From Eukaryota sp. GEM-RC1 (taxonomy: Eukaryota), in contig JAUFOQ010000013.1 of NCBI GenBank assembly GCA_040285855.1, positions 1,240,001 to 1,304,000 on the forward strand: 64,000 bases of DNA, given 5' to 3'. The notes below the pieces were generated by a model that saw only the letters and a list, made by a program, of their open reading frames with translations, ran no database searches and was not told the DNA's origin. The translations under genes were made by a program, and so were the position numbers. Of this stretch, positions 38,201 to 52,047 are shown one piece after another (the stretch's first letter is position 1; each line of letters starts with the position of its first letter).

Positions 38201-40583
38201 TGTCGATTCCTTGGCCCAAAGTTCATTTACTTTCTCCAAATTTCTTACAAATTTCTTTTTAATCTTATCGACCTTCACTTTGGGATTGTCTGGAACTAAA
38301 ACATTAATACTGTCAATTATGCCATGCAAGTTTTGGACATTATTGACTAATTGAACTTCATCAGGATCAGAGTCATGCTTAAGTTCTTCCAAGCGTTTGA
38401 CAGTTTCATTTTTAGAAAAATTATTCATTTCAAGAAAAATTTGAACAACATTTTCCAAAAAAACGGCCACCAGTAAAGACATAAAAATTCTTCAGTACAG
38501 CATTCAAATCGAGGCTAAAAAACGGACCAAAAGTTGTTTCCTTACACCATTTGTTGAACCAAAAGGGAATGTAGGGTTTAAATTCTGGAAAAGTAAACGT
38601 TGTATTGATTTTGAGGACTTGACAACGTGATACAAGAAAGGGAAATGTATCTAAGTGAAAGTCATAACTCACAAACAATCGTGGACAATGTTGAGTAATG
38701 AAGGAAATAAAGTTTTTAAGCATACTGGATTCACTATCTGAAATATGTAAAGTACACAAATCCAAGTTTGAAGTATCAAAATTGCCATGAGAAAATAAAT
38801 GCTTTTCATTTAGCTCATTGTGATCAATGATCTGGATGGAAATTGATACAATCGGATCAACAGAAGAATCACGTTTAACTTCTAATTGATCTTCAGCTTC
38901 ACCTTCAACAGTTTCAATGTCATCATCATCTTCTTGAACAAGTTGAACATTTCTGCCATTAATTCTTTCTTTTTTGGCAAAATCACTTTGAACATGAATT
39001 AAACAAAAAGTTGGTAGATTGTTCCAAAGTAGAGGGGATTTAAGAAAGTCTTGAATTTGTATTTCTTCTTCTATAGGCTCAGTGTGTAGATTTACTTCCA
39101 TTTTATGGATTTCTTCTTGAATTGGCGATGGATACGACATAATGGAGGCCTGTGATTTTGGTGGTAGTTCAGATGGTGGTAGTTCAGTTACTGATGATAG
39201 TTCAGATGGTGATGATAGTTCAGATTGTGGTAATTCCGATGATTCCAATGTGGACATACGGCGGTGAGTCTTTCGTATTGGAGTGTCACCAGTTGAAACA
39301 AGGGAGCTGGTAGTTCTAAATTTATTTCGTTGAATTAAAGGTGAACCTCGTGGTGATGGAATATCAGAAATTTTGGGCTTACTTTTTTTAGTGCTAAAAC
39401 CAGTAGATGTTTTAGTGCTAGCAAGACGTGAACCTGTGAGAGGAATTGAAGTGGTTGGATGTTCTTTACCGGCAGGAGGTTGAATGGGTAGCGATGGTTC
39501 AATAGGAGCTACTGTGGTTTGACGTTGTTGTAGATAAAGTGTCCTTTGTTGAGACAATACATCCCGAATTTTTTCACGAAATATGTCTGCTTGAAGTTCA
39601 GTGTTCACTTGGACCAAATAAGTTTCCAAATACATCAGAGACGGAACATACGTGAGTCTTTTAAAAAGTTCAACATATTTTTGAATATACGCAATGACAT
39701 AAACTCCACAGTCGTTAGCAGACTGTGTTTTAGTCACAGGCACATAACGGAAATCATACCCCAATGGCATAAGTACTTCGGATAATATGTCTACAGCTGG
39801 TTTTACCATAGACTTACTCATATCTTCGCTAGTTAACATCGGATCAATGAAGATCCAAGAATTTTCACAACAGTCTATAATGGCTAAACCCCAATGAGAA
39901 CCAGTGACACCTTCTCTGGAATAATTAGCATTTCTAGTCATGGTATCACTAAGGGGAACAAAGAGGTATTTGGAGTTTGTGATTTGCTTTTTCTCAATTT
40001 TCGTCAACAACCATGGATCTAGCGGGGCATCTGGTGAAACAATATATTGAAGCAATGTGGTCGGATGGATAAACATTCTTTCAAAGTCTAACTCTGCTTC
40101 TTGAAATATCACTTTACAGTACTCCACTATCGCTTCGTCATCAAGCCATTGATTAGGATAAACTGAGTTTATGGCTTCTTGAGTTACGGGTCCTGGATTG
40201 GATTCAATATCACCATCAGCGGTGAGGTCTTTTGGGAACGGAGGATGGGAAGGGATAAACAGGGGAGACGAGTACTTCATGGCAACAAATGTTGATAAAA
40301 CACAGAATGAACTGTCCTTATCTAAACTCAACTGAGCCCGAAACCGTGCAATGGAGTCAGTCACAAGTTGAGTCAGATAAGGACAGAATGGCGGCATTAT
40401 CGAAGCAACGGCAGTGGGGAAAGCAACGGCAGTGGAGGGAGAAGCAACGGCAGTGGAGGGGAAAGAACTGTCCTTATCTAAACTCAACTGAGCCCGAAAC
40501 CGTGCAATGGAAACAGTCACAAGTTGAGTCAGATAAGGACAGGATGGCGGACAACATCTGTTTGGATGCAGAACAAACGACAT
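35220..40583 (-). CDS. Element C polyprotein (~1,790 codons if frameshifts are errors): leader-2A | Ulp1 protease - PolB-exonuclease-like - Fanzor1 RuvC nuclease - CCHC knuckle
   Basis: DLTADGDIESNPGP 40188-40229. Ulp1: WLDDE..GSHWGL..FIDPM..QSANDCG. Exo-like: ESSMLKNFISFI..PRLFVSYDFHLDTFPFLVSR. Fanzor1: ISTDGVS, AIDPN (D 36669-71), YGDW, VDEFKTSKCCSAC (E 35827-29), CAKC..WNRDFNSAINI (D 35532-34). Tail CRICSQPGHNKTTC. Confidence 0.85.
40309..40550 (-). repeat. 156-bp-period duplicated hairpin leader of element C with three short aagcaacggcagtgg spacers
   Basis: Hairpins 40312-40386 and 40468-40542: CTGTCCTTATCT..ACTCAACT / AGTTGAGT.AGATAAGGACAG. Confidence 0.95.
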
Positions 40584-40697
40584 TTATACTGTAGGAGGAA
40601 GGAAAATGAAATCCCACACAGACTGTAATGGACATGTGTGTGTGAATTCACGTGTTAAAAAACGAAATCTGTAATAAAGTCTATATCAGAATTTCCC

Positions 40698-42215
40698 ATG
40701 TCCTACTCAATCTTCAAACTCAGAAATACTTCTGAACAAGAAAGTCGTTCCCGTACCATCAAAACATATATGAAACTTGTTGTAAAGCTTGCTGATAAGC
40801 ATGCAGTTAATTTGTCACTTGTTCTTCTTCCTTATGGAACATACAATTTATGGAGAACTAAATCCATCCACATAACGGAAGTGTCAACACCTGACTTACC
40901 AGATGATCTTAAAAAGGGTACCATGGATTTTTGCCTCAACTACAAATCATCCGTTGCCATTGTGCTAGATGTTGATCTAGAAACTGTTCATCTCTTTCCT
41001 TTTGATGGTTCTTATGAGAAGCGTGACATATCTCTTCCACTTCCTTCAACAACTTCAACTCTAAATCATCTTAAGGATCTACTCAAAGACGTTAAACGAG
41101 TTACAATTGCTCTTTCTCCTCCTCCTCCTCAGCCTCAATCTCCTAATCTTTTACATGATTGTGACATTACTCGCATTGACGATACTCCATCTCAAGTCGT
41201 TTTTCCTTCACCAAAACGTCGTATTGATAACTTCGCAATCAATCATATTCATTCTATTTTCTCTGAACCATCTGAAATAGTTCCTGTTCCGGTCATTGAT
41301 AATGCTAATTTATCTAAACCTATGAAACGCAAAAAACAACGTAACCCGTTGATTCTTTCTGTAGATTTAATCAGTGATCAGTTTTACATAAATTCAAAAT
41401 TAAAATTTGGATTTTGTGATATTGAAAAAATGTTGACAAAGGATGATAGAGAAGGCAAAACACAACTCTTGTTGAGTTCTGAACTTGATTTCATTGTGAT
41501 GCTTGCATTCCAAAAATTTAAATCAAGTAGGTACAAGTTCCTGCAATCTCAAGAAACTCAACAGTTGGTAGGTGATCCAATATGCTATGCCTTACATTCT
41601 GGTAAGGCTATTGTCGATACACTAAAATCAGGAAAAGAATTCTTGCCCCATTATGTTTGGTGAAAGAACATGTTCCTGGTGATGCAGGATCTGGTCATTG
41701 GATTCTTATTGAATTGTTTCTAAATGAAGCAAATGTTTTATTATTCAATATTTATGATTCTTTGGATTATTCATTAACCACTGAATTAATCGTTAATCCT
41801 TTTAGAACTGTTTATGGATGTGGGGAAACAAATCTGTTTGCAAGATTACCAGAGTATAAGGTGGACTACTATATACCTTTTGCACAGTCAACATCGTCTC
41901 TTATATGTGGATGGATTGTCTGTTTGAATGTTACTTTAATTTTACAAGGATTAATGGTTGATGCACGTCAGGAACAAAATCAGACAAAATTATACACTAA
42001 CAGATCAAGAAAAAAATCTATGTCTTGTTATGTATGATCTACTTCAGAGTGTACAACCTGATTTGATGACAGAACAAAATGTAATTGATGTTTCAACAAC
42101 AAAATTTGAAAACAAATCGTCAAAGACAAAAGACGAAAATGACATTTTAGGGAAAAAACAGGAAAACGAAGAATTAAAACCACTGCAAGTGCTTTTGGAA
42201 TCAAAAAGACTTTAA
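40698..42215 (+). CDS. Ulp1/C48-like cysteine protease (frameshifted), divergent from element C
   Basis: LLSSELDF, ILAPL..GSGHWILI..NIYDSL..QSTSSLICG give the His-Asp-Gln-Cys order. Confidence 0.65.
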
Positions 42216-42695
42216 AAAAAATGAATTGATAGTGATAGAGAATAAATAGTACAATATAGATGTATTTATAATTTTGTATAACATATAAGAATAACACAGC
42301 AAATAAACAATAATAATTGTACAATATTACAATGTTCAATTTTGCAGTTTGAACTGTGTCAGACGTAGTCTGAATACCAATGTTTTGTTACATAGTTATT
42401 ACACACAGAACAATCCGTGAATTTCATCCACCTGAAATCTGACAGAAATTTGTTACAGATTTAGTATGTCAGAAAATGTGACATATAAAACCAGACCAAT
42501 TTGTTACATATTCAGTGTAGATGTGGTAGCATAGTTTATGTGAAAAATCATGGTATAAATTATAAATTTAGACCAGATAAACCCAATCAATCAACTTCTT
42601 CGTTGATTGATAAATAAAGAAAAAATTGTAATAAAGACTTATAATTATTATATTGTTCTACATAATAAAAAAAACATCAATGAATTATTGAAAGA

Positions 42696-51317: not shown

Positions 51318-51416
51318 CCACTGCCGTAGCTTTGATGATGCAGCCTCCCTATCCTTATCTAACTCAACTCGAGACTGACTCCATTGCAGGGTTTCGGGCT
51401 CAGTTGAGTTTAGATA
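51318..51416 (+). repeat. Inverted, diverged copy of the element C leader hairpin
   Basis: Matches the reverse complement of ~40319-40417. Confidence 0.9.
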
Positions 51417-51960
51417 GTCCCAGTATGAAAGGCCTTATTACTTTATGCAAAATTCTGTCTATTAACAGGACAGTGATTGATCTGGATATCTCCCCCAACT
51501 TAATTGATATTGAAAGTCACATTTTCTGTTTTTCACCAACGAATTTTGTTCCCAAAGAAGCGGGGGTGGCAGGATTTGAAGAGGTGATGTATATGACATA
51601 AAGACCATTTACATCTGTTGATCTACTCTGCTTCTGAATTGTACAGAGGAACGAAGATATACCACCAAGCTATTGCTCAAGATGTTCCCATTGTGACTTT
51701 GAGAAGAAGAGCAGAGAGAAATGAAACGGAGGGAACGAAGAAAGTTATACAGTATGGCCAAGACAAATCACAAGACAACCATACTTCTCAGAGGACAATC
51801 TTCAAGTGGTTCAATGCAACGTTAAGCGGATCTACGAAACATACAATGCAAGAGGCATTCAGCAAGAATCAGTCAGAAATCCAGTGTTTTCAGCAGAGGA
51901 GATAACTGAAGGAGCATCATCACAGAAGAAGTGTATAAAGAGAAAACCACGGAACAACAC

Positions 51961-52047
51961 ATTCCTTCAACCCACCATCCAAATCCCGTGACCGTGCAAT
52001 GGAAACAGTATCTGGATGGCGGAATTGAGAAATGGCGGATGTGGACG
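51961..52047 (-). repeat. Orphan D-type leader hairpin
   Basis: cttcaacccaccatcca.atcccgtgaccgtgc.atggaaacagt...atggcggatgtggacg shared with the element D repeat; no 2A seen downstream. Confidence 0.9.

What the first reader, a model, noticed from the sequence alone, without database searches (positions are those of the whole stretch)
40312..52033. Conserved, covarying RNA hairpin with AU(U/A)GCAC apical loop upstream of 2A (6 copies)
Seen: the core ACUG(UU/AC)UCCAU(U/A)GCA(C/G)GGU(UU/CA)CGGG occurs at 40312-40386, 40468-40542, 48314-48378, 48467-48531, 51961-52033 (minus) and 51355-51416 (plus). Arm sequences of C-type and D-type copies are unrelated, yet each forms a ~17-20 bp stem. The inner helix covaries (CUGA/UCGG versus CUGU/ACGG). 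G-U pairs work only on the coding strand, pointing to an RNA structure. CCGCCAU precedes the stem in the C, D and orphan copies. Known: AUUGCAC is the U1A-binding loop of U1 snRNA SL2, and paired U1A sites form the polyadenylation-inhibition element. The 7-nt loop also reads like an Ala anticodon loop (UGC/AGC). Inference: a new cis-acting RNA such as a protein-binding site, IRES/tRNA mimic, mobilisation signal or ribozyme. Caveat: the core also encodes TxSIARxR in frame with 2A.
Basis: partly seen in the sequence, partly recalled or inferred. Interest (0 to 1): 0.88.

Follow-up and report, generated by a model that had tools for sequence, protein, structure and literature searches.

The report
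Swappable hairpin-2A leaders of selfish genes
In what is likely a soda-lake protist, repeated and probably selfish genes begin with one or more long hairpins followed by a virus-style 2A peptide predicted to clip the leader off, the same leader types sit in front of different cargo genes (one ending in a Fanzor nuclease), and the hairpins likely work as RNA signals that set how the cargo is translated.

Summary
The six copies are real (0 matches in 100 shuffles) but reduce to two lineages. The claimed inner-helix covariation is one pair, broken in 10 of 24 paralogous units. The hairpins are longer than reported (24-36 bp). I found a seventh hairpin with a third, unrelated stem and a UGCAC loop (52076-52162). 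Across the three stem types G·U pairs outnumber A·C mismatches 13:0, so pairing is selected on the sense strand. In the two intact genes the stems start 38-41 nt after an ATG, in a cassette ATG-(hairpin x1-3)-pyrimidine linker-2A-cargo. Named paralogues (Skoliomonas sp. GEM-RC) show other tandem leader types (up to 8 units) shared between cargos at the 2A. Cargos include Ulp1-exonuclease-Fanzor1 and helicases. Two more 2A genes in the window carry a different hairpin pair. There is no Rfam match and no copy with its stem outside this organism. The hairpin fails tests for a canonical U1A site, a tRNA mimic and known ribozymes. Best reading: a cis-acting RNA translation element inside the ORF, with 2A discarding the junk peptide; closest to alphavirus downstream hairpins and L1Tc's 5' RNA + 2A. 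Function and expression are untested.

The parts
40468..40542 (-). C1 hairpin (28 bp, loop AUUGCAC), starts 41 nt after the ATG at 40583
40312..40386 (-). C2 hairpin (29 bp, loop AUUGCAC), second unit of a 156-nt tandem
40218..40311 (-). Pyrimidine-rich linker (70% C+T) between the last hairpin and 2A
40188..40217 (-). 2A-like core DGDIESNPGP of gene C
37268..40187 (-). Cargo C, part 1: Ulp1/C48 protease and PolB-exonuclease-like domain, continuing across a frame break at a T run near 38470 (one ORF in paralogue P0014)
35220..37361 (-). Cargo C, part 2: Fanzor1-like nuclease in three frame-shifted pieces; fusion to part 1 is inferred
   Evidence: (SpuFz1 E 7e-5, 8e-9)
48450..48545 (-). D2 hairpin (36 bp, loop AUAGCAC), starts 38 nt after the ATG at 48583
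48297..48392 (-). D1 hairpin, identical tandem copy (153-nt unit)
48182..48211 (-). 2A-like core [10 protein letters not shown] of gene D
44865..48181 (-). Cargo D: unknown N-terminal part with a CxxCxxxxHxxxxC knuckle, then co-oriented frame-broken ORFs with a DEAH (HrpA/B-like) helicase; a single long ORF is inferred
52076..52162 (-). New hairpin G (35 bp, 7 G.U, 10-nt loop UCCUGCACUC), third unrelated stem, 123 nt upstream of the D-type orphan
   Evidence: (z -6.67)
51947..52044 (-). D-type orphan hairpin (36 bp, loop AUUGCAC); with G it forms a mixed tandem leader that has no 2A downstream
51352..51420 (+). C-type orphan hairpin (24 bp, loop AUUGCAG), 3' arm truncated, at the end of a mosaic of gene fragments
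6311..6575 (-). E leader: 100-nt units (about 2.6) with a different hairpin pair (loops AUCA and GUUUA) upstream of 2A DVENNPGP at 6201-6227; Upf1-like SF1 helicase further downstream
10319..10480 (-). F leader: two 81-nt units with the E-type hairpin pair, upstream of a degenerate 2A (DIESNPDP, 10185-10214) and Ulp1 domains related to cargo C

Best explanation
The hairpins sit at the start of the reading frame in a leader (ATG, tandem long hairpins, pyrimidine linker, 2A-like peptide) found on several different, likely selfish cargo genes, and they likely act as RNA signals that set translation of the cargo while 2A is predicted to discard the junk peptide they encode. Shown: position, tandem copy-number variation, sense-strand pairing bias, an invariant GCA in the loop of three unrelated stems, and leader-cargo exchange at the 2A. 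Inferred: the stem is a scaffold that presents the loop to the initiating ribosome or a host RNA-binding protein, as alphavirus downstream hairpins do; it lies inside the ORF because this lineage likely has almost no 5' UTR; the shared 2A coding stretch also serves as the recombination joint.
For: Stems start 41 and 38 nt after the in-frame ATG; -33.9 and -40.5 kcal/mol against at best -15.5 for 14 other ORF starts. Seven of the 15 strongest hairpins in the window (at most -25 kcal/mol) have a (U/A)GCA loop and all seven are these copies; 1 unrelated case among the 122 weaker ones. G.U 13: A.C 0 in C2, D1, G. Core nucleotides are conserved beyond coding need. Of 27 family proteins with 2A: 14 have the C leader (all cargo 1), 10 the ESPAW leader (3 cargo 1, 7 cargo 2), 2 share another linker (one on each cargo), 1 other; units vary 1-8. 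All four 2A genes of the window have tandem structured units upstream. The C ATG is only 114 nt from the divergent gene's ATG. Giardia lacks scanning and giardiavirus keeps IRES structure in its coding region (PMC3066225, passages); Sindbis hairpin lies 27-89 nt after AUG (PMC5850377, passages).
Against: No expression, probing or reporter data. One organism only, and DNA for just five distinct C/D copies plus G; other leader types are known only as peptides. Substitutions between close copies do not keep pairs more than chance (p 0.10-0.79). The fourth core pair is broken in 10 of 24 units. E/F hairpins are no stronger than control gene starts (-15.7 vs -15.5) and their tandem units are out of frame with 2A in this assembly. 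A fixed loop sequence is not a feature I could tie to downstream hairpins. Tandem C units can cross-pair instead of folding separately. Strand bias cannot tell RNA from single-stranded DNA.
Confidence: 0.42

Rival explanations
1. The loops mimic U1 SLII / U2 SLIV and tether a host U1A/U2B''-family protein to the 5' end of long selfish transcripts, protecting them from early polyadenylation or aiding export.
For: G4, C5 and A6, which include the purines U1A most depends on (PMC2203988), and a C-G closing pair are present in 7 of 7 hairpins. Loops include U1-type AUUGCAC and U2-type AUUGCAG. G has a 10-nt loop holding the full eukaryotic consensus UGCACUC (PMC3510501). The ESPAW leader encodes S-P-A like G.
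Against: Loop is 7 nt in 6 of 7 and predicted closed, optimum at least 10 nt (PMC4114683). G lacks A1 (about 5 kcal/mol for human U1A, PMC2203988). The ESPAW peptide cannot encode AU(U/A)GCAC. E/F loops have no GCA. Giardia has no clear U1A (PMC3510501); presence in this organism was not testable.
Confidence: 0.2
2. The long G.U-rich stems are Dicer-type precursors of small RNAs that regulate other copies; the apex is a processing signal.
For: 24-36 bp bulged stems with variable arms and a fixed apex; cargos include DEAH and Upf1-like helicases and an exonuclease-like domain.
Against: Cleavage would destroy the mRNA just upstream of an intact 2A and cargo; E/F stems are only 13-15 bp; no Rfam miRNA match.
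Confidence: 0.12
3. The hairpins are single-stranded DNA signals at the left end of a mobile element (Helitron2 or IS200/605 style) shared by non-autonomous cargos.
For: Fanzor1 is often carried by DNA transposons including Helitron2 with 5' hairpins (PMC3627910); a multicopy PIF1 helicase (19 cluster members) and a mosaic of captured fragments lie nearby; G.T is also strand-specific in DNA.
Against: With DNA parameters the apex does not form in 4 of 6 copies and C shows no strand preference (-18.7 vs -18.4); hairpins are inside the ORF and tandemly repeated; no HUH/Rep or transposase domain in the ORFs scanned.
Confidence: 0.1
4. No RNA function: foldback duplications and a recently exchanged 25-nt patch in a repeat-rich genome, or a constraint on the TxSIARxR peptide.
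For: Only two lineages share the core; tandem duplications of 127-147 nt also occur in coding regions here (9399-9684, 52605-52986); within-lineage test not significant; the genome is 48% repetitive (PMC11316075).
Against: Three unrelated stems carry the same loop letters; 13:0 wobble bias; core changes are mostly non-synonymous; the only open frame from an ATG through the D-type orphan reads the core as a different peptide.
Confidence: 0.1
5. A new self-cleaving ribozyme that frees the transcript, as the HDV-like ribozyme does upstream of 2A in L1Tc.
For: L1Tc has a 5' ribozyme and an N-terminal 2A (PMC3383444, PMC3894237); single-hairpin ribozymes exist (PMC11620745).
Against: No Rfam ribozyme hit at E up to 10; no HDV, hammerhead or twister-sister-like pattern on the sense strand (patterns not validated on a positive control); cleavage would cut off the in-frame ATG; no RT or APE cargo.
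Confidence: 0.06

Closest known systems
Alphavirus downstream stable hairpin (DSH/DLP) of the subgenomic RNA
   Same: Stable hairpin inside the coding region a few tens of nt after AUG (27-89 nt in Sindbis, PMC5850377; starts at 38-41 nt here).
   Different: Cellular repeat genes, not a virus; tandem 1-8 units, several interchangeable types, fixed GCA loop, and followed by 2A.
L1Tc/ingi Pr77 + 2A and other 2A-bearing APE-type non-LTR retrotransposons
   Same: Structured 5' RNA followed by an N-terminal 2A in a selfish element of a protist (PMC3383444, PMC3894237).
   Different: No HDV fold, no APE or RT; cargos are Ulp1-exonuclease-Fanzor1 and helicases; leaders are exchanged between cargos.
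U1A/U2B'' sites (U1 SLII, U2 SLIV, PIE)
   Same: Loop letters (A)UUGCAC/G, invariant GCA, C-G closing pair.
   Different: 7-nt loop in 6 of 7, on a 24-36 bp stem in the 5' coding region; no snRNA context.
Fanzor1-bearing DNA transposons
   Same: Cargo C ends in a SpuFz1-like nuclease; Fanzor1 N-termini are variable (PMC3627910).
   Different: Hairpin-2A leader with Ulp1 and exonuclease-like domains upstream; no transposase found; omega-RNA not examined.
Engineered replicons that keep the first codons of capsid and remove them with FMDV 2A
   Same: Same logic: a cis-acting 5' coding stretch is kept and its peptide is cut away (Kunjin vector, PMC6321401 passage).
   Different: Man-made; here apparently evolved and shuffled naturally.

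Membership tests
U1A site (U1 SLII) | AUUGCAC in the loop | tested here: inconclusive
   Exact in 3 of 7; AUAGCAC 2, AUUGCAG 1, CCUGCAC 1
U1A site (U1 SLII) | C-G loop-closing pair | tested here: met
   7 of 7 in predicted folds
U1A site (U1 SLII) | Loop of at least 10 nt with A1 next to the closing pair | tested here: not met
   7 nt in six copies; G has 10 nt but no A1 and a shifted register (PMC4114683)
U1A site (U1 SLII) | Host U1A/U2B'' exists and binds | not testable with these tools
   No genome held; supplement search of PMC11316075 found no such term
Polyadenylation inhibition element | Paired internal loops in a 3' UTR (partly recalled) | tested here: not met
   Single apical loops in the 5' coding region
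tRNA-Ala anticodon mimic | U33, NGC anticodon, purine 37 in a 7-nt loop (recalled) | tested here: met
   Six C/D copies; not G
tRNA-Ala anticodon mimic | 5-bp anticodon stem or tRNA-like fold | tested here: not met
   2 bp above a pyrimidine internal loop; ARAGORN and Rfam find no tRNA there
HDV-like, hammerhead, twister, twister-sister(-like) ribozymes | Class fold and catalytic residues | tested here: not met
   Rfam; own patterns (no positive control); C has GCUCAG but not the partner strand, D has neither
Self-cleaving ribozymes | Self-cleavage | not testable with these tools
   Needs an assay
Alphavirus DSH | Stable hairpin in the coding region shortly after AUG | tested here: met
   PMC5850377
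Alphavirus DSH | Start-codon selection or eIF2-independent initiation | not testable with these tools
   Needs a reporter
2A/StopGo peptides | DxExNPGP core | tested here: met
   Genes C, D, E; F has NPDP and the site at 3493-3522 is degenerate; activity untested
APE-type non-LTR retrotransposon with 2A | APE and RT downstream of 2A | tested here: not met
   No such Pfam hit in 50 window ORFs and 17 further proteins
Fanzor1 | Homology to Fanzor1 over the RuvC region | tested here: met
   SpuFz1 E 8e-9 and 7e-5 for two of three pieces; the third matches only TnpB/Cas12f models weakly
Fanzor1 | omega-RNA at the 3' end | not tested
   Not examined beyond the Rfam scan (no hit)
Helitron2 | RepHel partner and terminal hairpins with asymmetric inverted repeats | tested here: inconclusive
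   PIF1 family has no Rep domain; element ends cannot be mapped without the genome

The most novel reading that the evidence does not exclude
A natural plug-and-play expression system: selfish genes swap a 5' cassette whose tandem hairpins display snRNA-like GCA loops to recruit a host RRM protein (U1A/U2B'' family) or the ribosome, with 2A acting both as peptide trimmer and as recombination joint, driving among others a Ulp1-exonuclease-Fanzor1 fusion.
Probability: 0.25. Interest if true: 0.87.

Novelty: new variant of a known kind. Interest (0 to 1): 0.62.

Why it matters
2A recoding is described as rare in cellular genes (PMC12846837), and in selfish elements mainly from non-LTR retrotransposons. 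Here it marks a family of at least 27 proteins in which structured leaders and cargos are shuffled at the 2A. If the hairpins are translation or protein-binding signals, this is a new class of cis-regulatory RNA in a deep-branching eukaryote, shows how a lineage with tiny 5' UTRs can hide RNA signals inside ORFs, and gives a directly testable portable enhancer-2A module and an unusual Fanzor1 fusion.

Tried and rejected
No whole genome is held, so copy number and element ends could not be examined in DNA. No sequencing run was listed, which is no evidence on expression. Outside searches for the core: viral contigs 0 with the strict pattern; 21 with a looser one, best 17.7 bits against 86-102 for real copies and none with 2A within 600 nt; metagenomes 1 hit, inside a small bacterial regulator-like ORF (PadR label recalled), no long stem; GTDB 0; phages 0. 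E/F motif 0 in viral contigs. G apex: 1 phage hit, taken as chance. Protein-led scans: none in metagenomes or GTDB; 20 viral loci matched essentially the 2A stretch only and had no hairpin hit below E 0.09. A test of whether the ESPAW peptide can encode a hairpin had no power: the true positive also failed (791 of 2000 shuffles). Within-lineage compensation test not significant. ESM Atlas gave nothing for the D cargo. Five look-ups of earlier findings returned nothing. YY1-site, REP, IRE1, SECIS and IRE resemblances were considered from memory and dropped for lack of register or context.
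Full report
Observation. The core ACUG-NN-UCCAU(U/A)GCA(C/G)GGU-NN-CGGG is present six times at the stated places; a looser pattern with up to 2 mismatches finds the same six and none in 100 shuffles. Four of the five distinct copies fold at z -4.2 to -4.8; the plus-strand orphan at z -1.7. 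The copies are two lineages: D1/D2 are an identical 153-nt tandem, C1/C2 96% identical 156 nt apart, and the orphans 84-88% copies of C or D. C and D share 19-23 of 25 core letters but 8-13 of 30 in each arm. Stems are 24-36 bp. Over the whole stem 12 of 30 pairs change on both sides and 86% of cells pair, but that structure was derived from these sequences and mainly says that each lineage is a hairpin around the same loop. In paralogous proteins the variant TVSIARF, which forces U.Y at the cited pair, is 10 of 24 units. CCGCCAU is enriched (10 vs 1.5 expected; 6 of the 10 in these leaders) but absent from the plus-strand orphan.

Context. The window is an intron-type eukaryote region; no genome is held. 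The C protein's relatives at E up to 0.001 are 7 clusters, all named Eukaryota sp. GEM-RC1 (members), i.e. Skoliomonas sp. GEM-RC, a free-living metamonad sister to Fornicata with a 33.5 Mb, 48% repetitive genome (PMC11316075, section 6 and passages). The window is from this organism or a close relative (inference). Gene C reads ATG-hairpin x2-linker-2A-Ulp1 protease-PolB-exonuclease-like domain; a paralogue runs through the first frame break, and the next pieces match Spizellomyces Fanzor1 (E 8e-9, 7e-5). Fusion across the second break is inferred, since P0014 ends at the same place. Gene D reads ATG-hairpin x2-linker-2A-unknown region, followed by co-oriented DEAH helicase pieces; another locus has three D units (P0048).

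The cassette. Among 27 family proteins that retain a 2A (names), 14 have the C leader (1-3 units, all on cargo 1), 10 an ESPAW leader (1-8 units; 3 on cargo 1, 7 on cargo 2), 2 share a third linker (one on each cargo, one with MRCW repeats) and 1 is different. Cargo sequence changes right after NPGP, so leaders and cargos are exchanged at or within the 2A. Unit counts depend on gene models and may be low. The ESPAW leader is homologous to C in its start and arm peptides (36% identity, E 6e-9) but its centre E-S-P-A-W cannot encode AU(U/A)GCAC. The window holds two more 2A genes, E (6201) and F (10185, NPDP), each with tandem units upstream that share a different pair of hairpins with loops AUCA and GUUUA (z -3.2 to -5.0; 97% of cells paired, 4 of 18 pairs changed on both sides). 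So all four 2A genes of the window have tandem structured units upstream. Two multicopy neighbours without 2A (Ulp1-like gene at 40698, 16 members; PIF1 at 55308, 19 members) have no such hairpin (-6.1 and -11.1 kcal/mol).

A seventh hairpin. An unbiased scan ranked the two D copies, the D orphan and a new hairpin G (52076-52162, minus) as the four strongest in the window. G has 35 bp, z -6.67, -44.7 against -23.3 kcal/mol on the other strand, arms unrelated to C and D (11-15 of 30) and the loop UCCUGCACUC. It lies 123 nt upstream of the D orphan. Of 15 hairpins at -25 kcal/mol or better, 7 have (U/A)GCA loops and all 7 are these; among the 122 weaker ones down to -15 there are 3, two of them antisense faces of the same hairpins. 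In the TVSIAR frame G reads S-P-A, like the ESPAW leader, followed by a stop; the frame open from the ATG at 52100 reads the D core as another peptide and ends without 2A.

RNA, DNA or peptide. Neutral decay of a perfect inverted repeat should give G.T and A.C equally often. In C2, D1 and G there are 13 G.U pairs and no 1x1 A.C mismatch, so pairing is kept on the sense strand. All five fourfold-degenerate third positions of the core are invariant, while three of four variable codons are non-synonymous, which argues against the peptide. With DNA parameters the apex fails to form in 4 of 6 copies. Against: substitutions between close copies do not keep pairs more than chance, and a recent exchange of the core between C and D cannot be excluded from five sequences.

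Mechanism. Shown: position 38-41 nt after the in-frame ATG, tandem variation, strand bias, invariant loop GCA, exchange at 2A. Inferred: the C start is 114 nt from the divergent gene's start, and Giardia, the nearest studied lineage, lacks ribosome scanning while its virus keeps IRES structure in the coding region (PMC3066225, passages). A 5' RNA signal would then have to sit inside the ORF, and 2A would free the cargo from the arbitrary peptide. The nearest working model is the alphavirus downstream hairpin, 27-89 nt after AUG, which fixes the start codon and allows eIF2-independent initiation (PMC5850377, passages). I give this 0.42. The U1A/U2B'' tether is the main rival (0.2): G4, C5, A6 and the closing pair are kept in 7 of 7, and G holds the consensus UGCACUC (PMC3510501), but six loops are 7 nt where at least 10 is optimal (PMC4114683), G lacks A1 (PMC2203988), the 7-mers are at background frequency in the window and Giardia has no clear U1A. 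Small-RNA precursor (0.12), DNA end signal (0.10), no function (0.10) and new ribozyme (0.06) follow.

Known systems and novelty. Rfam has no match at gathering score or at E up to 10. A model of the five distinct copies finds only the six copies and their antisense faces below E 0.05 in the window. No copy with a long stem was found in viral, metagenome, GTDB or phage collections; these hold few eukaryotes, so the range is unknown. L1Tc has a 5' ribozyme and an N-terminal 2A (PMC3383444 passages; PMC3894237 first third), and Fanzor1 rides in many DNA transposons (PMC3627910 passages), but neither matches this arrangement. Paper searches listed nothing on hairpin-2A leaders in this organism; term look-ups in three 2A surveys (PMC12338488, PMC12846837, PMC13405545, main text only, supplements not read) found no mention of Ulp1, and the last none of the organism. 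Their supplements may list these peptides. One supplement of PMC11316075 was an unreadable scan. PMC11620745 and PMC6321401 were seen as passages.

Verdict.

Noticed in passing
window 50614-51416: Mosaic of 42-108 nt fragments copied from neighbouring repeat genes (50016, 47232, 44170, Fanzor 35962, 43011, and the C hairpin inverted), several abutting head to tail; could be a silencing-trigger locus or capture debris.
   Followed up: partly
window 35220-40583 (-): Likely 2A-Ulp1-exonuclease-like-Fanzor1 fusion of about 1,800 aa with a C-terminal zinc knuckle; frame breaks partly at homopolymer runs; a paralogue stops at the same point near 37270.
   Followed up: partly
window 6311-6575 and 10319-10480 (-): Second hairpin family (AUCA and GUUUA loops, U-rich tail); the GUUU loop is complementary to a conserved upstream AAAC, a possible pseudoknot; no Rfam hit.
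   Followed up: partly
window 3493-3522 (-): Degenerate fifth 2A-like stretch (DGDILSNPGC) just after the Upf1-like helicase of gene E, with no hairpin units found upstream.
   Followed up: no
window 10793-10865 (+): tRNA-Trp(CCA) about 300 nt upstream of the F leader, divergent; no tRNA near C, D or E.
   Followed up: no
window 52062-52068 (-): A second UGCACUC in the linker between hairpin G and the D orphan; the 7-mer is at background frequency overall.
   Followed up: no
window 40698-42037 (+) and 55308-57761 (+): Multicopy Ulp1-like gene (16 members) head to head with gene C, and multicopy PIF1 helicase (19 members); neither has 2A or a leader hairpin.
   Followed up: partly
window 52605-52986, 9399-9684, 57787-58377: Other tandem repeats: 127 nt x3, 147 nt x2 (in frame), and a 15-nt satellite open in several frames.
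   Followed up: no
window 2316-3282, 14582-15662, 18513-19246, 59514-60771: Dispersed repeat family of 65-93% identity, probably decayed non-coding transposon pieces.
   Followed up: no
P0029: A further leader type with 27-aa MRCW repeats; its DNA and fold are unknown.
   Followed up: no
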